64,000 nt of DNA from Patescibacteria group bacterium (GCA_040390725.1 JAZJXT010000003.1:34502-98501), one strand, 5' to 3'; counted from the first letter of the stretch, positions 6,838 to 28,595 are shown. Notes: generated by a model from the sequence alone, not told the origin. Made by a program: numbers and translations.

Positions 6838-9800
6838 TTGTCACACAAAAAAACATACTCTTTAGACAAAAAAGCATTTTTATGCCAGTATATAGGTATG
6901 GAAAGAATATATAAACCAGTTACACAACCGCCTATTGTCCCTAAAAAGAAAGCGGATGTTGTTTCTAATAAAAAAGAAAAATCTGTTAAAAAGAAGGATA
7001 ATATAGAACTGTCAGTTGTCTCTAATCTTAAAAAAATATTAAACTCTCAGATAAGCCCAACTGCTGCGCAAATTTTTGTGTTTGAAAATGTGCATACAAA
7101 AGAAGAATTTGAAAGTGTGTTAAATTATCTTGTAAAAAATGCATCTGATAAAAAATTAGAACCCTACATAGGTAAACTTATAGATGCTATTGGTCAAAAT
7201 GGACAAAGGGTTAGCCCAGAAGTTTGGATTGAAAATATGTCGGACCTTTTTTCAGTCGCAGGTGTTTCCGGAAACATAAAAGATTCTGCGCTTTCTGCTA
7301 CTAATTATATAATGTCATTTTATGAAGGGCATATTCCTGAAATTTTAAAAAAAGCAACCCTTGAAGACATTTCTGATTATAACAAAACAGGTAAATTGAT
7401 TAAGTTTCTTTTTTACTTAGGCAGGGAAGCCAAAGGTCAGGGGTTTTCAGAAAAACTTTCTGAAAGTATAAAAGAAACCTTAGGTAAAATAGCAGAGCCG
7501 AAATTGGAAAAAAATTATTTATTAACAAAATTCGCTGGTGGTGCCTTAGAGGGGTTAGAAAACAAACACAATCCAAATGCTTCTGGCACACTTTGGTTTG
7601 CCATCCAAAAAGATCAATATGGGGCTGTGTATGAGGATGGATTTTTGCACATTAGTGATGCTGGAACAAAAAATGACATTGACTCTAAAACAGAAAAAAT
7701 TCATGAAATGTTTAAAATAAAGATGTCGTCTGAAGACGGGGAAAGATTGTCTGAGATAGAAAAAGAACTTGCAGAAATTAAAGAAGAGCTGTTCCCATCA
7801 AATAAAAAGATAATTACTGAAATTAATGAAAAAAATAATAAACTTATTAAAAAAATAAATGAACTTCATGATGAAAATGTAGAAATTTTTAAACGCAATA
7901 ATCCTGATTTTCGTGCCTTAGACAGAGAAAGGGTAAAAAGGGTTATTGAAATTGAAGATATTGTTTCAAAAAATACAATAACACCAAAAGTACTTATTGA
8001 TATGGTCCCTGGAGTAAGTCCTGAAGAAGTTAAAAAATTATATCCAGATTACTTGTTTATGTTGGATGGCATCATGAGACCAATTTTGGAAACAGACTTT
8101 CAAAAAGATATTTTTACACTTTCAATACCAGAGCAATTATATTTTTTAAATTACTTGAAAACAATAAATAATAAACAAGCTGAACAGATGAAGAATTTCT
8201 GTAAAACTAATGGCTTAAATGGTCTTCGAACATTTCTTTCAATTGCCCATGGTGGAAAGGAAATGGGAGACAAGATTATAACTATAGGGGAAAGGTTGCC
8301 GGAAGAATTGGCGGAAAAGGTTTTTCAAATTTACAGCGAACATGTGGAAAAAGTTGCAGTGGTGGCTGGAAAGGTTTTTTCTGATTTAAAACAGGAATTT
8401 CCAAATTTATTAATAGATGAAGATACTATTACTCAATCATTGTTGGTTCGCGCAAAAGATTTTTTGGTTGAGCTTGAAGCGGAATTGCAATCCAATCCGG
8501 AAGGAATAAAAAGTTTTGTTAATAAATTTATTACTGAAATTAAAAAAGAGTCACCTCAAGAGCAGGTGGTGCGAGCTCAATTTAAGACGATTGCAAATTT
8601 GTTAAATCATGAAAATGTTGATCTTAAAAATTTTGAAAACAATCAGGATTTGATTTTACATTCATTGGGCACGGGTGAGCAGAAAGCTTTGATGTTTAGG
8701 GCATTAAACAGGATGAATCGGTTGAGCCCTGTGCCTGAAATACATTGGCGAGTCGATCGTTCCAGTGAAGAATATGACAGACGTTTAGGAATAAATGTAA
8801 ATAAATTTTTACAAGAAAGGTCAGGCATTTTAGGCAGAAAACAGATTTTATTGGAAATTGGTCCTGGGAGTGGGGTTGCAAAATCAGGCAGGACAGACCT
8901 GGGCCTTTCTGAAAATTATCAAGACATAGCTCTTTCAGATAAAATTTATTATCCCTTGTCTTCAGTAGTTGAAAAACTTATTGATTACTCTGAATTAGAA
9001 AAAATAATGGGTAAGGAGTCAGGTTCGAACGATAATCTTCCACTTTCAGCAGAAGAAAAAAGCCAATTGGCGGATTTTATTTATAAAACAATAGTTATTA
9101 AGCAAGGAGAAACTTCATTCGATACTTTCACATACGACGAGCAAAACCAAATGAATTTAACTGAAGATATAAATAATTTAAAAAATATTTTAGGTGAACA
9201 GCTTGGTCAAAGATTAAAATCGGCAAAAGAAGTCCCCGACACTGTCAGCATGCATCGCGACGGCAAGGTTGTTTACCCGAATAAAATAAAAGTCGAATCA
9301 TGGTCGCCAAAATTACAAATGGCAAAAAAATTACTTGAAGAAAACCCAACAAACTTCTTGAGATCAGATTGGGAGCAAGTTGATTATTACGATTTGATCG
9401 AAGCTTTTCCTGCGAATGTTATGGTCGGGGACTTGGATCAAATTTCTCAATTGCGTTCAGACCAAGTCGATGTGGAATTGGCCGTCAGGTCCACTGTGTA
9501 TAAAAAGGGAGAAGATTATGTTCAATTCTTAGGGCAATTATTTAATACTCTGAGCGAAGGCGGTGTGGCCATAGATGACAGCATCAGGGACAATGACGGT
9601 TGGTATTATCGCATAGCGGAAGTTTTAGAGGCGCAAGAAAAATTTGGAGATAATAATGAAGTTTTAGTTATATTAGGCCCAGGTTTTCAAGGTGAAGACA
9701 AAAGGCAAGACAAAGTGCCTTTATCATTAGTCATTACAAAGAAAGGTAGTTCTATAGAATTGATAAAAAAGAATTTATTACCGGGGTATGAAATAGTTAG

Positions 9801-9897
9801 TCTTGAAAATTTATCTGGTGATCAAGATTATTTATTGACCTTAGATGATACAGGGTTAACAAAAAAGAAAGTAAATCAATCAGCTTTGGCAGCGTAA
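6838..9897 (+). CDS. Large (about 1000 aa) hypothetical protein: Lys/Glu-rich coiled-coil N-terminal half, C-terminal region with a SAM-methyltransferase-like GxGxG motif
   Basis: Uninterrupted 1019-codon ORF; …GRKQILLEIGPGSGVAKSG… resembles MTase motif I; no other recognisable family; alternative start at 6898 (MERIYKP). Confidence 0.5.
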   Translation: MSHKKTYSLDKKAFLCQYIGMERIYKPVTQPPIVPKKKADVVSNKKEKSVKKKDNIELSVVSNLKKILNSQISPTAAQIFVFENVHTKEEFESVLNYLVKNASDKKLEPYIGKLIDAIGQNGQRVSPEVWIENMSDLFSVAGVSGNIKDSALSATNYIMSFYEGHIPEILKKATLEDISDYNKTGKLIKFLFYLGREAKGQGFSEKLSESIKETLGKIAEPKLEKNYLLTKFAGGALEGLENKHNPNASGTLWFAIQKDQYGAVYEDGFLHISDAGTKNDIDSKTEKIHEMFKIKMSSEDGERLSEIEKELAEIKEELFPSNKKIITEINEKNNKLIKKINELHDENVEIFKRNNPDFRALDRERVKRVIEIEDIVSKNTITPKVLIDMVPGVSPEEVKKLYPDYLFMLDGIMRPILETDFQKDIFTLSIPEQLYFLNYLKTINNKQAEQMKNFCKTNGLNGLRTFLSIAHGGKEMGDKIITIGERLPEELAEKVFQIYSEHVEKVAVVAGKVFSDLKQEFPNLLIDEDTITQSLLVRAKDFLVELEAELQSNPEGIKSFVNKFITEIKKESPQEQVVRAQFKTIANLLNHENVDLKNFENNQDLILHSLGTGEQKALMFRALNRMNRLSPVPEIHWRVDRSSEEYDRRLGINVNKFLQERSGILGRKQILLEIGPGSGVAKSGRTDLGLSENYQDIALSDKIYYPLSSVVEKLIDYSELEKIMGKESGSNDNLPLSAEEKSQLADFIYKTIVIKQGETSFDTFTYDEQNQMNLTEDINNLKNILGEQLGQRLKSAKEVPDTVSMHRDGKVVYPNKIKVESWSPKLQMAKKLLEENPTNFLRSDWEQVDYYDLIEAFPANVMVGDLDQISQLRSDQVDVELAVRSTVYKKGEDYVQFLGQLFNTLSEGGVAIDDSIRDNDGWYYRIAEVLEAQEKFGDNNEVLVILGPGFQGEDKRQDKVPLSLVITKKGSSIELIKKNLLPGYEIVSLENLSGDQDYLLTLDDTGLTKKKVNQSALAA

Positions 9898-10673
9898 CTT
9901 TCTTTTGAGGAATTATTTTTTTCCAATTCCCAAATTAAGTTGAAAAGTTTTTCAAAGTTTTTTGCTATCTCTTGGTTGTCAATCAAGATACCTACAGCAT
10001 TATTTTTCTGAAATGTAATAATTGAAGTTAGTTGCTCGGTGATTTTTATATCCATACTGAAAGGGAAGATAGAATTTTGGAAAAATTTCGTTTCTCGCAG
10101 TTCTGATTCGGAATTGATGTTGATTTTATTGTCTGCCGGGGCGATAACCCTGTTTTTTATATTTAATTTTATTCTTTTCTTAATAAATTGCGGAAAGTAT
10201 TCAGGAATAAAAGATGCCATTTCCCCGCCATCTTCAAAACTGTCTATAAATTTACTTTTACTATTTAGGATTTGTTCGTATATATTTATAATACCTTCTT
10301 TACCCTCAAAAAATCTGACATTTGGTTTGCCTACTATTAAATTGTATTTAGAGGAAAGTGCACCGATGCCCGCGCCGACTATTTCTTTGGCGAGGTCTAG
10401 ATTCTTTTTATCCCTATCCATTTTATCTAACAATATAGAAGGGTGGGCGGGGTAGAATACCGCCACCGTGCCGGTACCGCCCTTTTTCTCTACTAAACCC
10501 ATATTTTCCAGCTGTTCTAGTATTTTATAAACCAAACCTCTTTTTATACCCGTCCAAGTTGAAAGCGGGCTGGCTTTTTGAGGGCCTTTATCCAGTAGGG
10601 ATTCATACACGATTGCTTGTTCTTCTGAAAGCCCCGCTTGTTTTAAAATATTTTCTTGATTTATATCTGTCAT
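9876..10673 (-). CDS. TrmB-family transcriptional regulator
   Basis: N-terminal winged HTH …AGLSEEQAIVYESLLDKGPQKASPLSTWTGIKRGLVYKILEQLENMGLVEKK… matches TrmB HTH; C-terminal effector domain. Confidence 0.75.
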   Translation of the reverse strand: MTDINQENILKQAGLSEEQAIVYESLLDKGPQKASPLSTWTGIKRGLVYKILEQLENMGLVEKKGGTGTVAVFYPAHPSILLDKMDRDKKNLDLAKEIVGAGIGALSSKYNLIVGKPNVRFFEGKEGIINIYEQILNSKSKFIDSFEDGGEMASFIPEYFPQFIKKRIKLNIKNRVIAPADNKININSESELRETKFFQNSIFPFSMDIKITEQLTSIITFQKNNAVGILIDNQEIAKNFEKLFNLIWELEKNNSSKESYAAKAD

Positions 10674-10696
10674 GTTTATAGCATAACATTTCTGTT

Positions 10697-10717
10697 TTTG
10701 TCATGCAAATATGACAA
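10697..10717. promoter_or_regulatory. Palindromic operator candidate upstream of the TrmB-family gene
   Basis: TTGTCAT-gcaaat-ATGACAA perfect 7-bp inverted repeat about 25 nt upstream of the regulator start codon; a DnaA-box-like TGTGGATAA follows at about 10718-10726. Confidence 0.4.
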
Positions 10718-10786
10718 TGTGGATAACTTTTATAACCTTATAAATAAAGGTTTTTTGTCTATTTATAAAATCTTTATCATGTCTTC

Positions 10787-10815
10787 TTGACATTTCTAAA
10801 CTAAAATGCTATACT
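10787..10815 (+). promoter_or_regulatory. Near-consensus sigma70-type promoter
   Basis: TTGACA-17 nt (…aaatgc)-TATACT; the same aatgcTAtACT architecture recurs at 17749 and 22353. Confidence 0.7.
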
Positions 10816-10819
10816 ATCC

Positions 10820-11215
10820 TCAGAAGGTTCGTTAAGGAGATTTCAGAAGATTGATGCCCACCTCTGATCCTGAGCATTGTTTCAACAAAGCACAGGACGG
10901 TACCTAAGCCGGTAAGTTAGGAAAGAGGAGAGAGTGAGCTGAGAGACAATCCTTTGAAATCTGTTTGCACCGCGGATTGCATAAATTGATATTGAGGCCG
11001 CAAACCCCAAATCAATGAAGCAACAAAGTCCGCAACCGTGTATACATCACTGCAAAGTGGTGAAGACATAGGCAGGTCGGAAGAGTCTAACCCTCTCTTG
11101 TGATCTGAAATGTCTTTATGAAGGAGCTGAATGTTTGAGGAGAAATATTCGGAGCACAAAGAGGAGAGAGACTTGCTTTGTGATAAAGATAAATTCATTG
11201 ACAACAAAATATTCT
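10820..11215 (+). ncRNA. Candidate non-coding RNA or long structured leader
   Basis: About 400 nt of GC-rich sequence after a consensus promoter with no ORF longer than 27 codons on this strand; internal direct repeat AAGAGGAGAGAG (about 10919 and 11160) and complementary CCCTCTCTT (about 11092). Confidence 0.35.
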
Positions 11216-11383
11216 GAAAGCGATTTCTTTTTTCTTAGTTGAATTAAAGAAATGGTATTTAGATATGCCTTATGAAGAAATTCGTGAGGGGAATATAAGT
11301 TTTTTCTTTTAACTTTTCTTTTTTGAGAGATATTTGTATATAAAATATTATATGTAAGTACCTCTCACAATAAAGAGAGTTAC

Positions 11384-11563
11384 ATGACAGATCAAAAAAT
11401 TTTAGCTCTGCGCGCGGCAGGGATAAATGTTATCGGGAAGATAGTTCTTCCTGGTGATAAAAAAACCGCCACCAAGAAGGTGGCAAAAAAACATTTTAAA
11501 CCTTTTTTCGGTGGTTATACCATCGGAGAAGTTTTGAAAGCTCAGGGTATCTCTTTGGGATAA
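11384..11563 (+). CDS. Small basic protein, 59 aa (below ORF-track cutoff), hypothetical
   Basis: Hand translation: MTDQKILALRAAGINVIGKIVLPGDKKTATKKVAKKHFKPFFGGYTIGEVLKAQGISLG*; purine-rich aaagagag 8 nt upstream; followed by an AGGGTTAA-hairpin module. Confidence 0.4.
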   Translation: MTDQKILALRAAGINVIGKIVLPGDKKTATKKVAKKHFKPFFGGYTIGEVLKAQGISLG

Positions 11564-11782
11564 GCTGAGTAAAAGTGTGAGTATCACTTTCAAAAAACTG
11601 CTCACTAGGGGTTAGGGTTAAAAACTAAAATGCTGAATTATTACAATTCAGCACCTTATTCAGTTCATTATTTTAAATGGTGGATTGATAGGGAAACATT
11701 TTCGTTCCTTTTTCATTCTTGCGGGATATTTTTACATATTAATTTGTGTATGAATACCCCGCAAAAATTTAAACGGGTTAAA

Positions 11783-12157
11783 ATGAATTATTTAGAAATT
11801 ATTGGCTACATTTCGGACATGGCCGGAGCCATTGGTGGAATAGTTTCCGCCATTGGAATTTTTACGCTTTTAGCGCAGAAAAGACGCGAAGAGCAAAATA
11901 TTTCTGTCTTCTTTAGGGTGATTGAAGAAGACCGGAATATTTTATTGCCCTTCGAACTTGTTCGGAGGGATATTTCCCGAGCTGAAATTCTTGGGAGAAT
12001 GGGCATGTTGCCCATTCAAGAAAAATCAGGAAGATTTTCTATTCGAGGGCTACTGTCTTCGGAGTTTTTAAAAAATCTAAATGAAATTCGCGAGGGTAAA
12101 ACCTCGGTTCTTCATATTTCTATCACCCAAAAGGAATTGGAGCAGTTTGTGCTTTGA
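11783..12157 (+). CDS. Hypothetical protein: N-terminal TM helix plus about 90-aa soluble domain (ORFan)
   Basis: MNYLEIIGYISDMAGAIGGIVSAIGIFTLLAQKRR… hydrophobic helix then charged domain; GC about 45% versus about 30% in flanks; conserved leader module upstream. Confidence 0.5.
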   Translation: MNYLEIIGYISDMAGAIGGIVSAIGIFTLLAQKRREEQNISVFFRVIEEDRNILLPFELVRRDISRAEILGRMGMLPIQEKSGRFSIRGLLSSEFLKNLNEIREGKTSVLHISITQKELEQFVL

Positions 12158-12247
12158 TTCTTTTTGAAAGGGTTACTGTTAGACCTAAAAAACAGCGCAG
12201 AACCTGTAGGGCGTAACACGAAAGGAGATTTTTTTAACCATTCAAAA

Positions 12248-12553
12248 ATGGCAAAAAAAATTATTGACTTGTCTTTAACGACAGAAAATCCTTTGTATAA
12301 AGGATGCTCTGTAGAAGAGGTTGCAGGTCGTCAAACTTTAACCACTCCCTTGGAGGAGGCGGTGAATATTGTGGGCAGAAATGCTGATGCAATAGTCAAA
12401 GCCGACACCGAGAGAGACGAGGTAGTTCTGACTGGCCCTATGGCTATTTGGAGCTACCTTATAGTATTTCACGCGGTCGTTCATGCTTACCGTCGTGTTT
12501 ACTATAGTGACGGTAGAGGAGGTAAAGACCTTCTCATCGCTGCTCACGGTTAG
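12248..12553 (+). CDS. Hypothetical protein, about 100 aa (ORFan)
   Basis: MAKKIIDLSLTTENPLYKGCSVEEVAGRQ…VVLTGPMAIWSYLIVFHAVVHAYRRVYYSDGRGG…; likely cotranscribed with 11783-12157. Confidence 0.45.
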   Translation: MAKKIIDLSLTTENPLYKGCSVEEVAGRQTLTTPLEEAVNIVGRNADAIVKADTERDEVVLTGPMAIWSYLIVFHAVVHAYRRVYYSDGRGGKDLLIAAHG

Positions 12554-12638
12554 GAAAAGACAAAACGAGGGAGCAGGCATGCGTTAAAACCTCAAATGAA
12601 AGTTGTACTGATACATGCGACAAAGATGCAAAGTATTA

Positions 12639-12763
12639 AGGGTTAATTTTGGAGGACGAAGGTTAAAAACTTTCGCGCCTCCTCTTTATTCAGATTTTTA
12701 CGCTTTAAGCGTAGAAGTTTGATAGGGAGACTTATTTTTTGTCTTTGTGGGATATTTGTACAT
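12639..12763 (+). repeat. Intergenic module copy A: AGGGTTAA, hairpin, TCTTTATTCAG, TTGATAGGGAGA, GGGATATTTGTACAT
   Basis: Shares ordered blocks with copies at 11611-11737, 14770-14870 and 15464-15565; hairpin ggaggacgaaggttaaaaactttcgcgcctcc followed by a T-rich tract. Confidence 0.6.
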
Positions 12764-12816
12764 TATGTAAATTGTATTTATTTTGTGTGTAAGTATCCCT
12801 TAAAGACGGGAATTAG

Positions 12817-13614
12817 ATGAATCCAGAAAAGTTTAAAGACCTCGTTCAAAAAGCGAGGATACTCTATCCTGACAACAGGGTGGAGGAAAGCGGGGATACT
12901 AACCCCGCGCCATATGTTTTTCTTACAGAGGAGGACAAAAAGGCGGGACCCACCGCTGTGGCAAAAAAATATAAAATGACGAAAGGGGTCGCGTATCGCG
13001 CTCTGAGTAGTTACGGATTTTTCCGTCCGTGGTATTTAAACACCAAAGAGGAAAAAAAACGTACTCCGGCTCACCATCGGAGAAATCAGGTATTCATGCC
13101 TAGTCAATGGGCAATGGAGAATCCTGAGATAATAATTAAGGCAGCTCGCCAGGCTGCCCAAAGAGAGCTTCGTTCTCGTTTTGGCTCGTTTCGTTTTACT
13201 CATGATGAATTTCAAGATATCGTGAGTGAGACAATAGTTCGCATGTATGCGAACTCGAGCAAGTGGGATCGGAGCAAGTATAGTTCCGATTTTGCGATGG
13301 CGTTGTTCGGTGGTTTTAGACATGTACGATCTGCAATAAATTTCGTACTGTTCAGAAAGGCTGAACAGCAAATCCCTTTTTCTACTTTCCTTGGAGCGGA
13401 AGGCGGTGAAGAAAAATGGTCGGCGCTTGAAGACGAAGCGTCGCTTGATGCCCAATCTCTTTTGGAGACAAAGGAGATTTTGAAAAATGTTGAACAAGCT
13501 ATTGTTGCCACTTACGGCCCAAAAACTTGGACAAAAATTTGGAGATGGGCAAACTCCAACAGGGTAAACATGCCGGAGGAGTATCGCAAGATACTAGAGA
13601 CATGTTTAAACTGA
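12817..13614 (+). CDS. Hypothetical protein, 265 aa (ORFan); weak resemblance to sigma-70 region 2
   Basis: Segment EFQDIVSETIVRMYANSSKWDRSKYSSDFAMALFGGFRHVRSAINFVLFRK loosely follows the sigma r2.1-2.4 pattern (DLVQETFLKAW…FSTWLYRIARN); no clear region-4 HTH. Confidence 0.45.
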   Translation: MNPEKFKDLVQKARILYPDNRVEESGDTNPAPYVFLTEEDKKAGPTAVAKKYKMTKGVAYRALSSYGFFRPWYLNTKEEKKRTPAHHRRNQVFMPSQWAMENPEIIIKAARQAAQRELRSRFGSFRFTHDEFQDIVSETIVRMYANSSKWDRSKYSSDFAMALFGGFRHVRSAINFVLFRKAEQQIPFSTFLGAEGGEEKWSALEDEASLDAQSLLETKEILKNVEQAIVATYGPKTWTKIWRWANSNRVNMPEEYRKILETCLN

Positions 13615-14309
13615 AAACAATTTTGCCTTTATCCGCTCCAGGAGTGAATAAGGTAAAACTCTCTGCCAAGGAGGGTGCTGTATATCAGCGAATACTTGGA
13701 CTTGCTCAGAAAGCGTGTATGCGCGCGCTTTTAAGTAAAGACATAGACGGCGCGTATTTCAATGCTGTCTATTTAGAGGATCGCTGTTTCCAGATTAAGG
13801 TGAAGCCGAAAATTGGGCTGAAGTTTAATCTGAACATATATTTGTTTCAGTTTTTTTCTTGCTGGTCGGACAACAATGTCGCCAACAGGGCTGAAGTGAA
13901 TATAAAAAACGATGACGAGGAGGAAGAAATTCTTCGCGTTCTCGTTGAAGCGATCAGAGCCAAAACGACTTCTTTCCGCGCGGGCTTTATGGCGGAAGAA
14001 GTTGTTGGAAATATGCTGGCGGACATGGCTGGTAAAAAAATGATTATCAAATACAAAAAATCTTTCCAGTTGGAAGATTTGGCGGGAGTTGATTTTTATT
14101 TTTCCGTTTTGGACTTTTTGGGATTTGTGGTTGAAATTCCACTACAAGTAAAAAGTTCAGTGGGGGGTCAAGCAAGGCATGAAAAAAAGCATGCTGACAT
14201 TCCCTCGCTCGTAGTCCGTCCTGAAACTTCCGAAGAAGAGTTGCAGGAAAAAATCATGAAAATTGCCGGCGCATATTCGGCAAAATTCAAAAAGGTTCTT
14301 CATGTTTAA
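13602..14309 (+). CDS. Hypothetical protein, 236 aa (ORFan)
   Basis: Start ATGTTTAAACTGA overlaps the upstream stop by 13 nt, suggesting translational coupling; track ORF starts at 13527. Confidence 0.45.
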   Translation: MFKLKTILPLSAPGVNKVKLSAKEGAVYQRILGLAQKACMRALLSKDIDGAYFNAVYLEDRCFQIKVKPKIGLKFNLNIYLFQFFSCWSDNNVANRAEVNIKNDDEEEEILRVLVEAIRAKTTSFRAGFMAEEVVGNMLADMAGKKMIIKYKKSFQLEDLAGVDFYFSVLDFLGFVVEIPLQVKSSVGGQARHEKKHADIPSLVVRPETSEEELQEKIMKIAGAYSAKFKKVLHV

Positions 14310-14340
14310 TTTGTTTTTGTTCACTTAAATTTTTTTCATT

Positions 14341-14706
14341 ATGGCAGTTATCACCGCAAAAAAACTTACGGATTTTTTTATTCGTAAGTCAGACAAAGGG
14401 GAGGTCCTCTTTGCTGATGGACAAACCGGCATGCGTTGTCGGCTCGGATTGTGCATTCGCACAATTTGGGAAAGTCCCAACGGGTTTGTTCCACAACCCG
14501 AGAAACATATTTTTGCAGTCAGTAGTGGAAGACTGGCTGACTTCGGAGTGGCATATGTCACATCTGAAACCCGTTCCATTGATCCGGACTTGCCAGGCAA
14601 GCCGGTAATGGTGGATTTTCTTGAAATTGGTGGTGTGTTTTATTACACCATTATTTTTGAGAAAAAAGAGCGACCACGGGCGCTCGAAAAAAGAAACTGG
14701 AATTAA
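14341..14706 (+). CDS. Hypothetical protein, 121 aa (ORFan)
   Basis: Intact ORF with island-type GC; followed by module copy B. Confidence 0.4.
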   Translation: MAVITAKKLTDFFIRKSDKGEVLFADGQTGMRCRLGLCIRTIWESPNGFVPQPEKHIFAVSSGRLADFGVAYVTSETRSIDPDLPGKPVMVDFLEIGGVFYYTIIFEKKERPRALEKRNWN

Positions 14707-14769
14707 TTCAGTTTTTTTTGCAATAGCTCTTGCCTATGAAGGTCGGCTTTGCCAGCAAGAATGTATCCT

Positions 14770-14870
14770 AGGGTTAATTTATTTGGGAGGAGTGGAATTG
14801 AACTTCACTCCTCCTCTTTATTCAGATTTTCAATTTTTAAATATTTTAAATTGGAAGTTTGATAGGGAGA
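14770..14870 (+). repeat. Intergenic module copy B: AGGGTTAA, hairpin, TCTTTATTCAG, TTGATAGGGAGA
   Basis: agggttaattta…gggaggagtggaattgaacttcactcctcctc-tttattcagatttt…ggaagtttgatagggagatg; identical block order to copy A. Confidence 0.6.
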
Positions 14871-14945
14871 TGCCGAAACCCAAAGAAAAAGTAGGAGAAT
14901 TAAAAACTTATTAAGTCCCCCGATGTCGTAAGGGGGCAGAAAAAA

Positions 14946-15464
14946 ATGGAATTTCTTGAAAAAGAAAAACCCCAACACGGTATCTCTTCTGGAGAAACTG
15001 TGTTCGGGTATTTTGCCCCTGACAAAACTTTACAAAAAGTTACGGGGTCAAAATTCGCCGAAATTTTGAAAAACTCTTCTTGGAAGAGTCAAGCCGGATA
15101 TTTCGGTGATGTCGATGAAGGGAACTGGGTCTCTTCCAAAAATAAGGAGGAAGTAACTCAACAGGTTCTTTCTGCGTGGAAAGAACTTGTTGGGGATAAA
15201 TACCCACATCCAAATGGGTATTGCTTATCCCTAGAAAAAGCCGTTAAGGTTTTAAAAGGGACCCCCGTCATTTATGAGGGGGAGGATAATTTTTTCATTT
15301 CCGGTAAGCCATATTATGGGCAGGGGAAGTGGAAATATTATAAAAACCTGAAAATGGAGGATATTTTTTGTCTCCCATTTAATGGGTATTACCCGGAGAA
15401 ATTATTTTTTTCGAGAGAAGAAATTCTCTCTGTCTGCAACACAAATTTGCAGTTTCCGGGGTAG
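14946..15464 (+). CDS. Hypothetical protein, 172 aa (ORFan, Gly/Tyr/Lys-rich)
   Basis: Intact ORF; small hairpin gtcccccgatgtcgtaagggggc just upstream of the ATG. Confidence 0.4.
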   Translation: MEFLEKEKPQHGISSGETVFGYFAPDKTLQKVTGSKFAEILKNSSWKSQAGYFGDVDEGNWVSSKNKEEVTQQVLSAWKELVGDKYPHPNGYCLSLEKAVKVLKGTPVIYEGEDNFFISGKPYYGQGKWKYYKNLKMEDIFCLPFNGYYPEKLFFSREEILSVCNTNLQFPG

Positions 15465-15478
15465 GGGTTAATATTTCA

Positions 15479-15515
15479 GAAAGGTTTGATAATTTCAAAC
15501 CTTTCTAACTTTTTC
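15479..15515 (+). terminator. Rho-independent terminator ending the island's last gene
   Basis: gaaaggtttgataatttcaaacctttc hairpin then taactttttcagttt; preceded by AGGGGTTAA overlapping the stop codon. Confidence 0.6.
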
Positions 15516-15722
15516 AGTTTATTATTTAACAGCTTACAAGCTTGTTGAATAGTGGATTGATAGGGCCCAGAAATTTTAAAAAAGTTTTTTAAAATTTCTG
15601 GGCGGGAAAAGCCCGGTTCAAAATTAAAATAACGTGCTGTTCTTTCTCGTCTCACAACAGAAAGAACAGCAAAAATCTCTCTCCTCTCGTTATTTGTTTT
15701 TTGAGCCGGACTTTTCTTTAGA

Positions 15723-16715
15723 TTATTTCTTCATCTCTCTTAAATCCGCCACTTCGTCCGTCTCGTCCATTATTTCGCCGACGAGCTGTTCGACGACGTC
15801 TTCGAGGGTGACGATGCCGGAAGTTCCGCCGAATTCGTCTTTGACTACTGCCATGTGGTTTTTACTTTTTTGGAATATCGGCATCAAGTGGTCGAGTTTT
15901 ATATTTTCTTTTACTTTTATTATATTTTTAGCAAATTCTTCTATTTTTTTATTTTCTTCTCCACGGATAGAGGCTTGTAGTAAATCAAGAGTGCGCACGA
16001 ATCCTATAATTGTGTCAAAGTTTTTATCATATACAGGGTATCTGGAGAAAGGAGCATTTTGTAGTCTTGGAATTACGTCAGCCAAAGTCTCACCTTGTTT
16101 TAAGCATTCCATTACTGTGCGCGGTGTCATGATGTCTTTTGCTGTCAGATCATTCATTGTAAAAGCTTTTTCAATAATTTCTCTTTCGCCTTGTTCTATT
16201 GAGCCTTCCATGTGTCCTACTCGCGAAAGTATTTTTAACTCTTCTTCTGAAGTTGTTTTTCTGACTTCCGCGAAGTTTTTAGTGAAAAGTTCCACAAACC
16301 AAGCAATAGGGGTAAATATTTTTGATAAAAAAAGTATAGGCCTCGCAGTTGTTAAGGAGATGATTTCCGAGTATTTTTCTCCTATTGTTTTTGGTATTAT
16401 TTCTGCGAAAAGAATTATAGATATTGTGACTACTGCAGATATTGCACCTACAAACTTATGGTCATATATTTTTGCCGCATAAAAACCGACGAATATACTG
16501 CCGGCAATACTTACGACATTGTTTAATATAACTAAGGTAATTATGGGGCGATTTATCTTATTTTTTATTTTCAAAAGAGTATTTGCCCCAAAAACTTTCT
16601 TGTCTTTTAATGCTTCGGCGCGCGTGGCGGAAATTGTAAAAATAGCCGCTTCGGACATAGCGAAAATTCCCGAAAGAAAGATTATTAGTAAAACTATGAT
16701 AATTAAAAGTCCCAT
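15723..16715 (-). CDS. CNNM/CorC-HlyC family protein (DUF21 TM domain + tandem CBS), putative Mg/Co efflux
   Basis: N-terminal multi-TM DUF21-like region, two CBS-like repeats (…LTAKDIMTPRTVM…), C-terminal CorC_HlyC-like tail. Confidence 0.7.
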   Translation of the reverse strand: MGLLIIIVLLIIFLSGIFAMSEAAIFTISATRAEALKDKKVFGANTLLKIKNKINRPIITLVILNNVVSIAGSIFVGFYAAKIYDHKFVGAISAVVTISIILFAEIIPKTIGEKYSEIISLTTARPILFLSKIFTPIAWFVELFTKNFAEVRKTTSEEELKILSRVGHMEGSIEQGEREIIEKAFTMNDLTAKDIMTPRTVMECLKQGETLADVIPRLQNAPFSRYPVYDKNFDTIIGFVRTLDLLQASIRGEENKKIEEFAKNIIKVKENIKLDHLMPIFQKSKNHMAVVKDEFGGTSGIVTLEDVVEQLVGEIMDETDEVADLREMKK

Positions 16716-16723
16716 AATGTTTT

Positions 16724-17755
16724 TTAAATTAATTTATTTTGTACATTCTCTGGTAAGTCGAAACCCAAATGTGTGTAAGCTTTTTCTGTGGCGACGCGTC
16801 CGCGGGCGGTGCGTTCGAGTAGTCCGAGTTGTATAAGGTACGGTTCGATGACTTCTTCGACTGTGGCTTCTTCTTCGGAAAGTGCCGCGCAGATTGTTTT
16901 TAATCCTACTGGTCCACCGTTGAATTTTTCAATTAAAACTTCTAAGAATTTTCTATCTGATGCATTCAAACCTATTTCATCTATCGAGAGCATGTCGAGA
17001 GCTTCTTTAACCGTTTTTTTATCCAAGCTTTTTTTGTGTACTTGCGCATAGTCACGAACTCTTTTTAGAAAATAATTCGCAGTACGAGGAGTGAACCTAC
17101 TTCTTTTTGCAATTTCTTTTAATCCTTCTTCTTCGAGTTCCGTTTCTAAAAGCTTGCTTGAACGTTTTACTATTTCCGCAATTTCTTCATTTGAATAAAA
17201 TTCTAATCTGAAAACTCCGCCGGAAAATCGGGAACGAAGAGGGGAGGATATTAATGCCACACGCGTCGTCGCTGCTATCAAAGTAAAAGGAGGCAAGTCG
17301 AGCTGAATAGTTCTTGCCGAAGGGCCCTTGCCTATGATGATATCCAGCACTCCGGACTCCATTGCTGGATAAAGTATTTCCTCCACCATTTTATTTAGTC
17401 TGTGAATTTCGTCTATAAAGATAATATCGCCTGGGGAAAGGTTGGTCAGGATGCTTGCCAAGTCACCGACTTTTTCAATTGCCGGGCCGGAAGTTATTTT
17501 CATTTGTCTGCCAGTTTCTTTGGCTATGAGGTGTGCCAAAGTGGTTTTGCCGAGCCCTGGGGGGCCATAAAAAAGGATGTGTTCGGGTATGTGCCCGCGT
17601 TCTTCCGCAGCTCGTAATAGGATATTTAGGTTGTCTTTTATGTGTTTTTGGCCGATATAGTCGTCCCAACGGCTAGGGCGCAAGGCCTGGTCGAGGATTA
17701 CATCCTCGACTCTTGTTTTCTCTTCTTTGTTTTTGTTGTTATTTTCGCTTGACAT
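16724..17755 (-). CDS. ruvB: Holliday junction branch-migration ATPase RuvB
   Basis: Walker A GPPGLGKTTLAHLIAKE, AAA+ and winged-helix C-terminus; 343 aa. Confidence 0.92.
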   Translation of the reverse strand: MSSENNNKNKEEKTRVEDVILDQALRPSRWDDYIGQKHIKDNLNILLRAAEERGHIPEHILFYGPPGLGKTTLAHLIAKETGRQMKITSGPAIEKVGDLASILTNLSPGDIIFIDEIHRLNKMVEEILYPAMESGVLDIIIGKGPSARTIQLDLPPFTLIAATTRVALISSPLRSRFSGGVFRLEFYSNEEIAEIVKRSSKLLETELEEEGLKEIAKRSRFTPRTANYFLKRVRDYAQVHKKSLDKKTVKEALDMLSIDEIGLNASDRKFLEVLIEKFNGGPVGLKTICAALSEEEATVEEVIEPYLIQLGLLERTARGRVATEKAYTHLGFDLPENVQNKLI

Positions 17756-26900: not shown

Positions 26901-28595
26901 TTACCCAACTTCTTGTTGGTAACATTTCTCACAATAAACTATTTCTGGTCTTTCAGGGGCATAGGCTGTGGTGATGGGTGTATTGCATTTCATACAATTT
27001 CTTTTCCATAATTTCATCGGGTTTAGTCGGGAGAAATTATATTTCATTCTGCATTTTTGACAGGAATGAGGTACGGGCATATTCATTTTTCTTAAAAGCG
27101 AAAGTTCCATCAAGCCTATTTTGTATCCGCGATTGCATTCACTGCATTCTATAACTCCATTAAGTATTTCATCATTAGTATCGGAAATTTTATCCGGCAA
27201 ATTCTTAGCATTGATTGTTGTTTTATATTCTATTGGCTGTTCGTCGTACCAAGTAAAGCCCTCTCTTACACATTCTTCTTTTGTTTTTGGAAAAAATTTG
27301 TAGCTAGTAGTTTCATTGTATCCGAATAGGCTCATTTTTAACGGGAAAGTTTCTCCATAAGTCCATACTCTGCCTTGCGGGTCTATGTAGGGATTTTTCT
27401 TCATGTCCTCTATAATTTTTATTTTTAATTTTTCATATTCTTCTTTTGCGTATTCTTTGTTTAAGATGCAGTATTTTTTTCTTTTTAAATTCACGCAACC
27501 GAAATTATTTTTTCCGGCGATAGTCCAAATGGAATATTCTACATCCATACTTTCTGTATAAGCGCAATAAGAGAATTTTACATTACTGACATTTTCTCCG
27601 CTGGAGTGCGCTTCATAAATATTTTCAACATTCGCGCCCCAGCCGGAATAATCATAACAGCCTTTGGCAGGCTCTACAGTGATAAATTGGCAATAACTGC
27701 AATCTTCCGCGCCTTCACAAATATATAACTCTCTAGAATTTTTACATTCATAAATATATTCTCCTGTCGTGTTTACATTTAGAGTACTGCCGGTATATTC
27801 TCGGACTGGTTTTGTCATCCAAAATTCATGTGCTTGTTTTTCAAGTTCTCTTAATTTTATCCAAGAATCCAAACCAAGTTCCTTTATTTTTTTCTCATAT
27901 TCTTCTTTTGAATATTTAACATTAAAAATGCAATACGAAGCTCCGCGCATATTTACACAACCGATGCAATCATTGCAGTTGTAGCAATTTTTAGAAAAAT
28001 AAACATTTACACAATTTCTACATAATTCTGAAAAATATGTTTGATAGCATTTATAAATACCATTTGATTCGTAGCATAATTGTGATTCCCGTGCACGCAA
28101 GCAATCAGATGAGTCTTTCATTTTTAAAAGTATTGAAGAGTTATTTACATTTTCGCAATAATCCGCCCAAAAGGTGAGATAACAATTCCTCAAATACGAT
28201 GCGCCGTTGCAGTATTCAGAATTTATCATTGTTGGAGCGATTACTTCTTGGGCTACCCAAGGGGTTTTTCTAGAGAGCTCATAAATTTGTTCAAAGAAGT
28301 TTTTATTTGGGTCGTAGTCCATAGCGTATTCTGTGCCATCCCAATCATCCGCCCACCAGCAATCAGGGCAATACACTGCCACCGGTACATCTTTGTTGTA
28401 CATTGAAAGAACTTTCTTTTGGCATTTATTGCAGTTCCTCCAATACACATTCCATACGTTGTGTGTGGAAAGCCTGCGCACGATACGACAAATCGAGCAC
28501 CAAGTCGGGTGAGGGACATTTATTTTTTCATAATAAAGCTGGTCACGTTCGTCTATCACGAAGTCATTTTTACAGTTTTGGCATACGCCGTTCAT
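26901..28595 (-). CDS. Cysteine-rich protein (about 10% Cys, dozens of CxxC pairs), function unknown
   Basis: 564 aa; CQNCKN, CSICRIV, CNKCQKK, CPDCWW, CRNCVNV, CYNCNDCIGCVN, CSECNRGY, CQKCRMK, CMKCNTP, CEKCYQQ and others; no enzymatic motif recognised. Confidence 0.6.
   Translation of the reverse strand: MNGVCQNCKNDFVIDERDQLYYEKINVPHPTWCSICRIVRRLSTHNVWNVYWRNCNKCQKKVLSMYNKDVPVAVYCPDCWWADDWDGTEYAMDYDPNKNFFEQIYELSRKTPWVAQEVIAPTMINSEYCNGASYLRNCYLTFWADYCENVNNSSILLKMKDSSDCLRARESQLCYESNGIYKCYQTYFSELCRNCVNVYFSKNCYNCNDCIGCVNMRGASYCIFNVKYSKEEYEKKIKELGLDSWIKLRELEKQAHEFWMTKPVREYTGSTLNVNTTGEYIYECKNSRELYICEGAEDCSYCQFITVEPAKGCYDYSGWGANVENIYEAHSSGENVSNVKFSYCAYTESMDVEYSIWTIAGKNNFGCVNLKRKKYCILNKEYAKEEYEKLKIKIIEDMKKNPYIDPQGRVWTYGETFPLKMSLFGYNETTSYKFFPKTKEECVREGFTWYDEQPIEYKTTINAKNLPDKISDTNDEILNGVIECSECNRGYKIGLMELSLLRKMNMPVPHSCQKCRMKYNFSRLNPMKLWKRNCMKCNTPITTAYAPERPEIVYCEKCYQQEVG

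What the first reader, a model, noticed from the sequence alone, without database searches (positions are those of the whole stretch)
10690..15600. GC-rich five-kilobase island of ORFan genes with a modular repeated intergenic architecture
Between the TrmB-family regulator and the CorC-like gene, composition shifts from about 30% to about 45% GC. The region has a consensus promoter, a 400-nt non-coding stretch, then seven intact ORFs (59, 125, 102, 265, 236, 121 and 172 aa) in which I recognise no family. They form four apparent units (P1; P2-P3; P4-P5-P6 with a 13-nt overlap; P7), each bounded by the same ordered module. No integrase, transposase, CRISPR, RT or recognisable toxin-antitoxin or restriction gene is present, so it fits no named defence or mobile-element class I can identify. 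The protein sizes (a TM+soluble protein, a possible sigma-like factor, several small soluble proteins) and the private regulatory motif suggest a self-contained acquired system.
Basis: partly seen in the sequence, partly recalled or inferred. Interest (0 to 1): 0.8.

Follow-up and report, generated by a model that had tools for sequence, protein, structure and literature searches.

The report
RNA-headed, RNA-punctuated gene cassette array
The "island" is the variable cargo of a locus conserved across Patescibacteria (CPR bacteria): an undescribed ~400-nt structured RNA is followed by swappable gene cassettes, including orphan CRISPR-signalling genes, and each cassette ends in the same two-hairpin RNA element.

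Summary
The features are real. There is a consensus promoter, a ~400-nt non-coding stretch, seven + strand ORFs and four copies of one ordered module. The GC shift is smaller than stated (35% background, 40-45% in the island).

It is not one self-contained ORFan system.
1. The non-coding stretch is a conserved structured ncRNA, absent from Rfam 15. It sits next to a divergent TrmB-like gene in 22 fetched Patescibacteria loci.
2. Genes downstream of this RNA differ between genomes, while whole cassettes recur in different arrays and positions.
3. The module recurs in at least 13 loci, always downstream of the ncRNA where context is visible. It folds on the sense strand as a terminator-like hairpin plus a second hairpin whose wobble-rich base is formed by the two "conserved motifs".
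4. P2 is Csx23 with its cA4-binding residues kept, P3 is Csx3-like, and P5 has a PD-(D/E)xK nuclease fold. P4-P5-P6 is a rare conserved trio. No Cas10 or CRISPR array lies in the window.

Best reading: an accessory-gene cassette array transcribed behind the ncRNA and punctuated by RNA termination/processing elements. An integron-like capture platform is not excluded.

The parts
9876..10673 (-). TrmB-family regulator gene, divergent from the ncRNA. It is the conserved partner of the ncRNA, not just a flank.
   Evidence: Pfam TrmB E 1.3e-12. A homolog lies adjacent and divergent to the ncRNA in all 15 genome loci plus L011, L037, L057, L075, L084 and L101.
10699..10716 (.). Palindrome TGTCATGCAAATATGACA between trmB and the ncRNA promoter; candidate operator.
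   Evidence: Read from the sequence. The same TGTCA-N8-TGACA palindrome lies 87-88 nt upstream of the -35 box in L022, L026 and L057. Close variants are visible in L012, L017, L037, L084 and L101. The operator function is inferred.
10787..10815 (+). Near-consensus extended -10 promoter of the ncRNA (TTGACA-17-TGcTATACT).
   Evidence: 11 of 12 matches plus TG. The same promoter heads the ncRNA in the other loci.
10822..11212 (+). Conserved structured ncRNA of about 390 nt here and 196-581 nt in relatives. It has an optional 5' domain and a core hairpin with the invariant loop YUAACCC (about 11065-11114). Two 3' hairpins carry purine-rich GGAGAGAGA-type loops.
   Evidence: No Rfam 15 family at E<=1, and none at gathering score on ten related loci. 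Homologs in 15 species-representative genomes and in metagenome contigs. 5' domain: 95.2% of cells paired against 33-44% when slid, 13 pairs changed on both sides, 0 of 500 shuffles reach this. Core hairpin: 93.9% paired, with three apical pairs covarying.
11268..11289 (+). Hairpin CCUUAUGA-AGAAA-UUCGUGAGG followed by GGAAUAUAAG and a U-rich run. It resembles the second module hairpin and precedes the first cassette.
   Evidence: The stem changes compensatorily in L002 (CUCCG/CGGGG) and L011 (CCUCA/UGGGG). By inspection only.
11323..11351 (+). Promoter-like site TTGAGA-17-TATTAT inside a long AT-loop hairpin just upstream of P1. Similar hairpins with different sequences precede P2 (about 11720-11762) and P4 (about 12745-12798).
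   Evidence: 10 of 12 matches; direct-repeat families D2 and D20. Function not shown.
11384..11563 (+). P1, 59 aa, lysine-rich, no family. Cassette 1.
   Evidence: No hit in Pfam, PHROGs, PADLOC or NCBIfam. Its 90%-identity cluster holds only itself.
11608..11693 (+). Module A: GGGGTTAGGGTTAA, hairpin 1 (GCTGAATT/AATTCAGC), then hairpin 2 with the conserved base CCUUAU-U-CAGUU / GGAUUG-AUAGGG.
11783..12157 (+). P2, 124 aa: Csx23 family, a membrane-anchored cA4 sensor/effector of type III CRISPR signalling. Cassette 2.
   Evidence: PADLOC Csx23 E 2.8e-23. PDB 8qjk Csx23 E 1.2e-4. The residues equivalent to the cA4-binding R95, R110 and F111 of PMC11014256 are kept as R66, R84 and F85. Residues 5-31 are hydrophobic.
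12248..12553 (+). P3, 101 aa: Csx3/Crn3-like, a probable cA4 ring nuclease. Cassette 2.
   Evidence: PADLOC Csx3 E 8e-6 and a CARF-Csx3 fusion model E 3.3e-6, both over residues 55-100 only. No PDB hit by sequence at E<=10. A twin at >=90% identity sits in other CPR arrays.
12639..12727 (+). Module B.
12817..13614 (+). P4, 265 aa. It has an N-terminal HTH-like stretch, and its family is otherwise unknown. First gene of the conserved trio (cassette 3).
   Evidence: Only 4 hits among 1.84 billion representatives. No Pfam domain in it or its relatives. Co-occurs with P5 and P6 in L002, L006, L011 and L057.
13602..14309 (+). P5, 235 aa: N-terminal alpha/beta domain plus a C-terminal PD-(D/E)xK-type nuclease fold. 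Second gene of the trio.
14341..14706 (+). P6, 121 aa, beta-rich, unknown family. Third gene of the trio.
   Evidence: Six family members found. The AlphaFold2 model is too weak to use (pLDDT 57). No PDB hit.
14770..14867 (+). Module C. Hairpin 1 at 14785-14815 scores as an intrinsic terminator.
14863..14937 (+). Leader of cassette 4: a DUF805b-like hairpin (14863-14897) and the hairpin GTCCCCCGATGTCGTAAGGGGGC (14915-14937).
   Evidence: DUF805b scores 20.8 bits here, below the gathering score of 35.6. The homologous leader in L065 passes at 47.8 bits. An identical hairpin precedes an unrelated 171-aa ORF in L065 and L039.
14946..15464 (+). P7, 172 aa, no family. Cassette 4.
   Evidence: No hit in four profile libraries. 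Singleton cluster.
15463..15565 (+). Module D. Hairpin 1 at 15478-15506 scores as a terminator. The 5' motif overlaps the P7 stop codon.
15565..15603 (.). Perfect 19-bp palindrome: a bidirectional terminator shared with the convergent CNNM/CorC gene. It marks the end of the array.
   Evidence: Inverted repeat I7, 100% complementary.

Best explanation
Window 10690-15600 is the variable cargo of a locus conserved in Patescibacteria.

Anchor. The anchor is a large protein (1019 aa here), a TrmB-like regulator, and, divergently, a strongly promoted structured ncRNA of about 400 nt.

Array. Accessory gene cassettes lie downstream of the ncRNA on the same strand. This genome has four:
- P1, unknown.
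- Csx23 plus a Csx3-like protein. This would be a membrane effector that senses cyclic tetra-adenylate, together with the ring nuclease that removes the signal.
- P4-P5-P6, a rare conserved trio built around a PD-(D/E)xK-fold nuclease.
- P7, unknown.

Module. Each cassette ends in a sense-strand RNA module. It starts with one or two GGGUUA motifs, followed by a GC-rich hairpin with a U-rich tail that looks like an intrinsic terminator. A second hairpin comes last, with an 11-bp wobble-rich base and a bulged U formed by the two conserved sequences CCUUAU-U-CAGWU and GRWUUG-AUAGGG.

Inferred mechanism. The array is transcribed from the ncRNA promoter and from weaker internal promoters. The modules act as RNA punctuation. 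They cause partial termination or protect the 3' end at hairpin 1. At hairpin 2 they offer a binding or cleavage site for a structure-specific factor, much as RNase III sites separate the early genes of phage T7. Each cassette would thereby become its own mRNA.

Shown: the anatomy, the conservation, the strand of folding, the cassette mosaicism and the protein family assignments.
Inferred: co-transcription, termination or processing at the modules, and any role of the ncRNA in the array.
For: Anchor:
- The ncRNA core pattern hits 15 species-representative genomes, all Patescibacteria apart from one short contig labelled otherwise.
- TrmB-like homologs occur in 22 loci and big-protein homologs in 19.
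- ncRNA structure is supported by covariation. No Rfam family matches.

Variable cargo at a fixed site:
- Downstream ORFs differ between loci and lie almost all on the ncRNA strand.
- The same rny...clpP flanks in L002, L006, L017, L019, L055 and L057 hold different cargo.
- L012 shares the TrmB and RuvB flanks of the window but none of its cargo.

Cassette mosaicism:
- The trio is first in L002, L011 and L057, lies after two small ORFs in L006, and is third in the window.
- The Csx23-Csx3 pair is 81% identical over 832 nt (window 11780-12603) to L101, where it follows a MoxR cassette. trmB aligns at only 69% over 213 nt.
- A MoxR triad recurs in L023, L045 and L101.

Module:
- 17 copies from 13 loci. 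Hairpin 1 has dG of -10 to -21 kcal/mol and z-scores of -2.1 to -6.4, with unrelated sequences.
- The base helix is 98.9% paired against 31-64% when slid. One pair covaries (U-A 11, A-U 4, U-G 1) and three G-U wobbles are invariant.
- The + strand folds better in 17 of 17 copies: mean -33.7 against -19.8 kcal/mol, p 1.5e-5. Hairpin 2 stems hold 21 G-U against 1 A-C.
- Hairpin 1 of modules C and D passes a terminator scan; the region has 14 terminator-like sites against 4.9 expected.
- Wherever context is visible (10 loci), the module lies 1-4.5 kb downstream of the ncRNA on the same strand.
- Neither the ncRNA nor a true module occurs in IMG/VR viral contigs.

Proteins: Csx23; Csx3-like; P5.
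Against: - No transcript data exist. Co-transcription, termination and processing are all inferred.
- Canonical modules are absent from most ncRNA loci (found in 3 of 18 by a relaxed search). L006 and L101 carry diverged versions.
- The extreme sequence conservation of the hairpin-2 base and of GGGUUA is more than a generic terminator or RNase site needs. An unidentified specific partner is implied.
- A module also lies inside the recurring MoxR triad (L045, L101), so modules do not only mark cassette ends.
- The Csx23-Csx3 pair has no Cas10 or CRISPR array within the 64 kb. Its signal source is unknown.
- Most cargo in other arrays has no recognisable family, so 'defence-type' rests on a few cassettes.
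Confidence: 0.55

Rival explanations
1. Integron-like gene-capture platform. The modules are recombination sites that travel with cassettes. The ncRNA/TrmB end is the insertion platform with its promoter. Cassettes are captured and shuffled by an unidentified recombinase, or by an RNA-dependent mechanism.
For: - All cassettes share one orientation behind a single strong promoter, and each unit ends in a structured site whose hairpins keep their structure but not their sequence.
- The same cassettes occur at different positions in different arrays.
- The cargo is ORFan-rich, as in chromosomal integrons.
- A divergent gene occupies the position intI would hold.
- The 3' UTR between P6 and its module is conserved between the window and L002, so part of the 3' region moves with the cassette.
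Against: - No tyrosine or serine recombinase, transposase or HUH enzyme lies in or next to the array here or in the related loci.
- The modules fold on the sense strand and depend on invariant G-U wobbles that would be A-C mismatches on the other strand. attC sites fold on the bottom strand.
- There are no R/L boxes and no GTTRRRY core.
- The module after the same cassette differs between genomes and follows the lineage's own variant: L101 and L006 against the window.
- Homology between the two Csx23-Csx3 copies starts at the start codon and fades before the module.
Confidence: 0.15
2. One reading: one self-contained, horizontally acquired multi-gene system. P4 would be its own sigma-like factor and the repeated module its private promoter/terminator signal.
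For: - GC is raised over the whole stretch.
- All seven genes are co-oriented and share the module.
- P4 gives weak sigma-70 region 2 and ECF hits: E 0.054 and 0.1.
- Sigma factors do occur in type III CRISPR signalling, for example CalpS, as summarised in PMC11229360.
Against: - The four units occur separately in other genomes.
- Modules occur in arrays that lack P4 altogether: L012, L017, L037, L045, L055, L084.
- The spacing between the two conserved motifs varies from 14 to 63 nt and they pair with each other. That fits an RNA helix, not two promoter hexamers.
- The P4 sigma hits are below the curated cut-offs, and none of its relatives has a Pfam domain.
- The promoter and the non-coding stretch belong to a conserved ncRNA gene.
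Confidence: 0.07
3. Ordinary neighbouring operons whose terminators look alike because a lineage-specific intergenic repeat (REP/BIME- or MITE-like) has spread into them. The ncRNA would be an unrelated housekeeping RNA that happens to lie upstream.
For: - Small structured intergenic repeats that double as terminators or mRNA stabilisers are common in bacteria (general knowledge).
- Many ncRNA loci have no canonical module.
- A plausible separate promoter precedes P1.
Against: - The repeat is not dispersed. All four copies in 64 kb lie inside the 5-kb array.
- In ten other loci with context it again lies just downstream of the same ncRNA on the same strand.
- It is conserved between lineages whose neighbouring proteins are only 40-55% identical, unlike fast-turnover MITEs.
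- It has no terminal inverted repeats or target duplications.
Confidence: 0.12

Closest known systems
Integron cassette arrays (Pc promoter, attI, cassettes each ending in a structured attC site)
   Same: One strong promoter at the head. Co-oriented cassettes, mostly of unknown function. Each cassette is followed by a roughly 90-nt element whose structure is conserved while most of its sequence is not. The same cassettes appear in different orders in different genomes. A divergent gene sits at the head.
   Different: No IntI or any other recombinase. No R''/L''/L'/R' boxes or GTTRRRY core. The element folds on the sense strand with obligatory G-U pairs, so it is an RNA feature. It contains a terminator-like hairpin. 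The head of the array is a 400-nt structured RNA gene.
Intercistronic RNA punctuation: RNase III sites between the early genes of phage T7, and REP/BIME hairpins in E. coli operons (recalled from general knowledge, not tested here)
   Same: Structured hairpins sit between co-transcribed genes and define mRNA ends and stability. They are repeated along one transcription unit and act on the sense strand.
   Different: Here the hairpin base is sequence-invariant across distant lineages. It is coupled to a GGGUUA motif and a terminator-like hairpin. It is confined to one locus headed by a dedicated ncRNA. Cleavage has not been shown.
Type III CRISPR ancillary genes: Csx23 effector (PMC11014256) and Crn3/Csx3 ring nuclease (eLife 2020;9:e57627, cited)
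   Same: P2 has the Csx23 architecture and cA4-binding residues. P3 resembles Csx3 in its C-terminal half. An effector paired with a ring nuclease is the usual on/off logic of cA4 signalling.
   Different: No Cas10, other cas genes or CRISPR array within 64 kb. The pair travels as a small cassette between arrays of CPR genomes. The Vibrio Csx23 systems were noted as lacking a ring nuclease, whereas this cassette has a candidate one.
Large structured bacterial ncRNAs of unknown function (OLE, GOLLD, ROOL, raiA)
   Same: Several hundred nucleotides, many conserved helices with covariation, invariant loops, lineage-restricted, and fixed protein-gene neighbours.
   Different: No sequence or structure match to any of them in Rfam 15. 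Restricted to Patescibacteria. Modular, with an optional 5' domain. Always paired with a TrmB-like gene and followed by variable cargo.
Defence islands / variable hotspots between conserved core genes
   Same: Conserved flanks with variable content. The content includes a nuclease, cyclic-nucleotide signalling genes, MoxR-type ATPases and toxin-antitoxin pairs. GC is slightly raised.
   Different: The cargo is strictly co-oriented, headed by a dedicated RNA gene, and separated by one conserved RNA element. Typical hotspots show none of these.

Membership tests
Csx23 (P2) | Sequence similarity to Csx23 profiles and to the solved cytoplasmic domain | tested here: met
   PADLOC PDLC01550 E 2.8e-23 over residues 21-122. 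PDB 8qjk E 1.2e-4 over residues 50-122.
Csx23 (P2) | N-terminal transmembrane helix followed by a soluble C-terminal domain | tested here: met
   Residues 5-31 (IIGYISDMAGAIGGIVSAIGIFTLLAQ) are hydrophobic and are followed by the region that aligns to 8qjk. By inspection; no topology predictor was run.
Csx23 (P2) | cA4-binding residues R95, R110 and F111 of V. cholerae Csx23 (PMC11014256) | tested here: met
   In the alignment, SRAE and RF are conserved: R66, R84 and F85 of P2.
Csx23 (P2) | Encoded with a type III CRISPR-Cas effector complex (Cas10 cyclase) | tested here: not met
   No repeat array. No Cas10-like protein among the flanking or large ORFs scanned against Pfam. The remaining ~40 kb of the contig and the rest of the genome were not visible.
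Csx23 (P2) | Binds cA4 and confers immunity | not testable with these tools
   Needs biochemistry or genetics.
Csx3/Crn3 ring nuclease (P3) | Full-length similarity to Csx3 profiles or structures | tested here: inconclusive
   Two PADLOC Csx3 models match residues 55-100 only (E 8e-6 and 3.3e-6). No PDB sequence hit even at E<=10.
Csx3/Crn3 ring nuclease (P3) | Mn-dependent cleavage of cA4 by head-to-tail dimers | not testable with these tools
   Biochemical property, as described.
PD-(D/E)xK nuclease superfamily (P5 C-terminal domain) | Restriction-endonuclease-like alpha/beta fold | tested here: met
PD-(D/E)xK nuclease superfamily (P5 C-terminal domain) | Catalytic D...(D/E)-x-K motif | tested here: inconclusive
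   D164, Q182 and K184 are invariant in 20 sequences and E178 is E or D. The signature reads (E/D)-x3-Q-x-K, which is non-canonical. Residues were not superposed on an active site.
Sigma-70 family (P4) | Regions 2 and 4 detectable above curated thresholds | tested here: not met
   Sigma70_r2 scores 13.7 bits against a cut-off of 24. TIGR02937 scores 12.3 against 42.9. No Pfam domain in the relatives P0028-P0030. No PDB hit with a family profile.
Integron | IntI tyrosine recombinase next to the array | tested here: not met
   The divergent gene is a TrmB-family regulator. No recombinase family appears in any island ORF or in the related loci.
Integron | attC sites: bottom-strand hairpin with R''/L''-L'/R' boxes and a GTTRRRY core | tested here: not met
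   The sense strand is favoured in 17 of 17 copies, with 21 G-U against 1 A-C. The conserved sequences are CCUUAUUCAGWU and GRWUUGAUAGGG.
Integron | Co-oriented cassettes behind one promoter, with cassette order differing between genomes | tested here: met
Any described RNA family (ncRNA and module) | Match to an Rfam 15 covariance model | tested here: not met
   No relevant hit at E<=1 over 9500-17000. At gathering score, only tRNAs and DUF805b are found in the window and ten related loci.
Intrinsic (Rho-independent) terminator (module hairpin 1) | GC-rich stem followed directly by a U-rich tract | tested here: met
   Modules C and D pass the scan. In most of the 17 copies the stem is followed by UUUCUUAUU, UCUUUAUU or AUCCUUAUU; module A has a weaker tail. 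Termination itself was not tested.
DUF805b RNA (RF02914), leader after module C | Score at or above the gathering threshold | tested here: not met
   20.8 bits against 35.6 at 14863-14897. The homologous leader in L065 passes at 47.8 bits, as does one in L012 at 49.2 bits.

The most novel reading that the evidence does not exclude
The conserved ncRNA, with the TrmB-like and large proteins, would be the platform of a Patescibacteria-specific system for holding and expressing cassettes. It would be a functional analogue of an integron that works through RNA. The invariant ncRNA hairpin loop UAACCC would pair with the GGGUUA motif that opens every module. This would control read-through or processing at each cassette boundary, or guide cassette capture. 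The locus would then be a previously unknown way for ultra-small bacteria to store and deploy accessory and defence genes, including type III CRISPR signalling modules detached from any CRISPR-Cas locus.
Probability: 0.15. Interest if true: 0.92.

Novelty: categorically new. Interest (0 to 1): 0.8.

Why it matters
Patescibacteria make up a large share of bacterial diversity. They have tiny genomes, and most of their accessory genes are uncharacterised.

This locus offers three testable things:
- A new large structured RNA class with clear covariation and a fixed protein partner.
- A new conserved RNA element that separates genes in one array.
- An organised array in which cassettes are exchanged between lineages.

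It also shows cA4-signalling genes (Csx23 plus a ring-nuclease candidate) moving as a free-standing cassette without Cas10. That raises the question of what supplies their signal.

If the ncRNA and modules prove to organise capture or expression of the cassettes, this would be a new principle of genome plasticity. Even if they do not, the RNA families and the P4-P5-P6 nuclease trio are new entries for RNA and defence-system catalogues.

Tried and rejected
1. Known RNA for the 400-nt stretch (RNase P, tmRNA, 6S, SRP, OLE/GOLLD/ROOL, omega RNAs, introns). No Rfam hit at E<=1 and ARAGORN finds no tmRNA.
2. Small ORFs in the ncRNA. An apparently similar peptide (SEHKEERDLLCDKD...) has no start codon in L002. 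The WYLDMxxEEIR stretch is a hairpin with compensatory changes. Both were dropped as coding.
3. The two module motifs as -35/-10 promoter hexamers. Their spacing varies from 14 to 63 nt and they pair with each other.
4. CRISPR array or tandem repeat: none.
5. Phage or satellite origin. PHROGs gives nothing significant. The ncRNA pattern is absent from IMG/VR. The six viral hits to the module pattern are chance or coding matches without hairpin 1.
6. Covariation between the ncRNA loop flanks and the GGGUUA flanks. It is consistent in the window and L012 and partly in L017 and L101, but fails in L037, L045, L055 and L057. Only the invariant 6-nt complementarity remains, so this stays a lead.
7. 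P6 structure: pLDDT 57, not searched further.
8. P4 function: nothing from profile-to-PDB or whole-library HMMER searches.
9. Extending the contig to look for Cas10. Only short Logan contigs were retrievable.
10. Cargo of other arrays in Pfam: almost all without a family.
11. About 58 of the 67 metagenome hits to the module pattern were chance or coding sequences and were discarded.
12. Rolling-circle nick site (CTTGATA-like) and G-quadruplex or telomere-like readings of the motifs were considered from memory. They were dropped because no Rep/HUH gene is present and the motif is half of an RNA helix.

Full report
**1. What is in the sequence**

The window is 35.3% GC. Between 10690 and 15600 the ORFs are 40-45% GC. 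The richest 800-nt window of the whole 64 kb starts at 12801, at 44.9%.

The other features check out:
- The promoter TTGACA-17-TATACT with a TG extension (10787-10815) is the best match in the region, 11 of 12.
- It is followed by about 400 nt without a credible ORF.
- Seven + strand ORFs of exactly the stated sizes follow.
- Four copies of one ordered module close the units P1 | P2-P3 | P4-P5-P6 | P7.
- Its 3' motif TTGATAGGG occurs four times in 64 kb, all here and all on the + strand, against 0.66 expected.

The flanks are housekeeping genes. On one side lie dnaN, a PBP1-type gene, tyrS, ruvC, a 1019-aa protein and a TrmB-family regulator. On the other lie a CNNM/CorC gene, ruvB, a pilB-type ATPase and polA. 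The organism is a Patescibacteria MAG.

**2. The non-coding stretch is a conserved structured RNA**

Homologs of P5 and P6 led to other contigs (L002, L006, L011). In each, the same consensus promoter is followed by a homologous non-coding region with visibly compensatory hairpin changes.

- A 23-base pattern from its core found 15 loci among 185,579 species-representative genomes and none in viral contigs. All are Patescibacteria except one short contig labelled otherwise.
- The RNA ranges from about 196 to 581 nt. It has an optional 5' domain, a core hairpin and two 3' hairpins with purine-rich loops.
- On 15 sequences, five helices of the 5' domain are 95.2% paired against 33-44% when the partners are slid. 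Thirteen pairs change on both sides, and 0 of 500 shuffles reach this.
- The core hairpin, which presents an invariant YUAACCC loop, is 93.9% paired and its three apical pairs covary.
- No Rfam 15 family matches, either at E<=1 in the window or at gathering score in ten related loci.
- A TrmB-like gene lies divergently next to the RNA in 22 loci. A relative of the 1019-aa protein lies beyond it in 19.
- A TGTCA-N8-TGACA palindrome sits between trmB and the RNA promoter in several lineages.

The promoter and the '400-nt stretch' are therefore a conserved RNA gene, not part of an acquired island.

**3. The cargo is variable and mosaic**

Downstream of the RNA, the ORFs differ from genome to genome and lie almost all on the RNA's strand.

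- In many Paceibacteria the locus sits between rny and clpP-tig, and the genes between the RNA and clpP differ: L002, L006, L017, L019, L055, L057.
- L012 has TrmB on one side and RuvB on the other, like the window, but shares none of its cargo.
- Whole units recur. P4-P5-P6 is found in five lineages: first in L002, L011 and L057, after two small ORFs in L006, and third here.
- The P2-P3 pair is 81% identical at nucleotide level over 832 nt (window 11780-12603) to L101. There it is the last unit behind a MoxR-type cassette. The trmB region aligns at only 69% over 213 nt.
- The MoxR triad recurs in L023, L045 and L101.

The genes are not core genes fixed at this junction.

**4. The module is a sense-strand RNA element**

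Seventeen copies were collected from 13 loci: the window, L002, L012, L017 and nine metagenome contigs. About 58 further pattern hits were chance or coding sequences and were discarded.

Each copy has the following parts:
- One or two GGGTTA motifs.
- A hairpin 1 of unrelated sequence, with dG of -10 to -21 kcal/mol and z-scores of -2.1 to -6.4, followed by a U-rich tail.
- A hairpin 2.

The two 'conserved linear motifs' turn out to be the two strands of the base of hairpin 2: 5'-CCUUAU-U-CAGWU...GRWUUG-AUAGGG-3'. That is 11 base pairs with one bulged U.

- The base is 98.9% paired against 31-64% when slid.
- One pair covaries: U-A in 11 copies, A-U in 4, U-G in 1.
- Three G-U wobbles are invariant.
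- The whole module folds better as the + strand in 17 of 17 copies: mean -33.7 against -19.8 kcal/mol, p 1.5e-5. Hairpin 2 stems hold 21 G-U pairs against one A-C.

This places the structure on the transcript, or at least on the sense strand. It argues against an attC-like bottom-strand DNA site.

- Hairpin 1 of modules C and D passes a terminator scan.
- In all ten loci with enough context, the module lies 1-4.5 kb downstream of the RNA on the same strand.
- A hairpin resembling hairpin 2 also follows the ncRNA and precedes the first cassette (window 11268-11289), with compensatory changes in L002 and L011.
- Canonical modules are missing from many ncRNA loci. L006 and L101 carry diverged versions.

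**5. The proteins**

*P2* is a Csx23.
- PADLOC gives E 2.8e-23, and the solved Csx23 domain 8qjk gives E 1.2e-4.
- It has a hydrophobic N-terminus.
- It keeps the three residues implicated in cA4 binding by Grüschow et al. (PMC11014256): R95, R110 and F111 correspond to R66, R84 and F85.

*P3* matches Csx3/Crn3 profiles in its C-terminal half only, at E about 1e-5. It has no PDB hit by sequence, so it is called Csx3-like.

An effector paired with a ring nuclease is the normal on/off logic of cA4 signalling. No repeat array was found, and no Cas10 appears among the ORFs scanned in the 64 kb. The rest of the genome could not be read.

*P5* belongs to a family of 20 proteins among 5.8 billion.
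- Its AlphaFold2 model has pLDDT 86.8.
- D164, Q182 and K184 are invariant.

*P4* has four relatives among 1.84 billion representatives and no domain above threshold. The sigma-factor idea is unsupported.

*P6* could not be modelled (pLDDT 57).

*P1* and *P7* are singletons without any family.

**6. How it most likely works**

Shown:
- A conserved RNA gene with a near-consensus promoter.
- Co-oriented variable cassettes.
- A conserved sense-strand two-hairpin element after each cassette.
- Recognisable conflict-type functions in two of the four cassettes.

Inferred:
- The array is transcribed from the RNA promoter and from weaker internal promoters, for example 11323-11351.
- Hairpin 1 terminates part of the transcripts or protects 3' ends.
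- Hairpin 2, whose sequence-invariant wobble-rich base implies a specific partner, is bound or cleaved by a structure-specific factor.
- Each cassette thereby becomes its own mRNA.

The nearest analogy, recalled from general knowledge, is the RNase III punctuation of the early operon of phage T7. I put this at about 0.55. Most of the uncertainty lies in the RNA-processing step and in whether the ncRNA has any role in the array.

**7. Rivals**

- Integron-like capture platform (0.15). It fits the mosaic, the orientation and the head promoter. It lacks any recombinase, and its 'sites' behave as RNA.
- A REP-like intergenic repeat beside an unrelated RNA gene (0.12). This is contradicted by confinement of the repeat to this locus in eleven genomes.
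This is contradicted by the independent distribution of the units and by modules in arrays that lack P4.

One lead remains open. The invariant ncRNA loop UAACCC is complementary to the GGGUUA motif that opens each module. The flanking bases co-vary in some genomes but not in others, so this is unproven.

**8. Novelty**

Csx23, Csx3 and the PD-(D/E)xK fold are known. The following match nothing in Rfam 15, Pfam, PADLOC or the papers searched:
- The ncRNA.
- The module.
- The P4-P5-P6 trio.
- The overall architecture: an RNA-headed, RNA-punctuated, mosaic cassette array confined to Patescibacteria.

I rate the architecture as lying outside known kinds of system. The caveat is that its mechanism is inferred from sequence alone.

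Noticed in passing
window 41421-41455 (+): A bona fide DUF805b RNA (RF02914, 40.4 bits against a gathering score of 35.6) lies just upstream of the ORF at 41475-41927. The same motif passes threshold in cassette leaders of L012 and L065. In L065 it overlaps the 3' end of a module. DUF805b may therefore be a general 5'-leader element in these bacteria.
   Followed up: partly
window 6838-9897 (+), and its homologs in 19 loci: The large protein next to trmB is very variable in length (368-1049 aa). It shares a central block (FLSIxxGGKEMGDKIxxLGEKLPE). By eye, most relatives end in a GNAT-like acetyltransferase region. The window's copy instead ends in a region with a SAM-methyltransferase-like EIGPGSG motif. 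No Pfam hit for the window's copy.
   Followed up: partly
L075 (Ga0194052_1001840), 1-1700 and 7900-9400: One contig carries two copies of the TrmB-ncRNA locus about 8 kb apart. The first is followed by a module and four cargo genes.
   Followed up: no
L012, L037, L055, L075 (283-338-aa ORFs next to modules): A recurring cargo family with a CDHHNPGD motif reminiscent of DHH phosphoesterases, but without any Pfam hit. In L012 it is preceded by a DUF805b RNA. In L012, L037 and L055 it lies directly upstream of a module.
   Followed up: no
window 14915-14937; L065 and L039 leaders: The hairpin GTCCCCCGATGTCGTAAGGGGGC and the following A-rich ribosome-binding region are identical upstream of P7 and upstream of a 171-aa ORF with no detectable similarity to P7. 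A shared leader precedes different genes.
   Followed up: partly
L101 10500-20300: Beyond the array in this relative lie two DUF4143-type AAA ATPases on the opposite strand, an AbiEii-family gene, a PhdYeFM/PemK toxin-antitoxin pair and a second TrmB-like gene. The neighbourhood is rich in conflict systems. DUF4143 ATPases also follow the arrays in L018, L037, L039 and L065.
   Followed up: no
L006 1-115: The contig begins with what looks by eye like the 3' end of an IS30-like transposase gene, immediately upstream of the ncRNA promoter, where TrmB sits in other genomes.
   Followed up: no
window 11571-11621 vs L101 7471-7522: A 52-nt stretch just before module A (GTGAGTATCACTTTCAAAAAACTGCTCAC plus the GGGTTA motif) is 85% identical to the region after the MoxR gene of L101. 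The genes it follows are unrelated.
   Followed up: no
window 26901-28595 (-): A 564-aa ORF whose only hit is a weak N-terminal treble-clef zinc-finger domain (E 0.001, below the Pfam cut-off). It is otherwise without a family.
   Followed up: no
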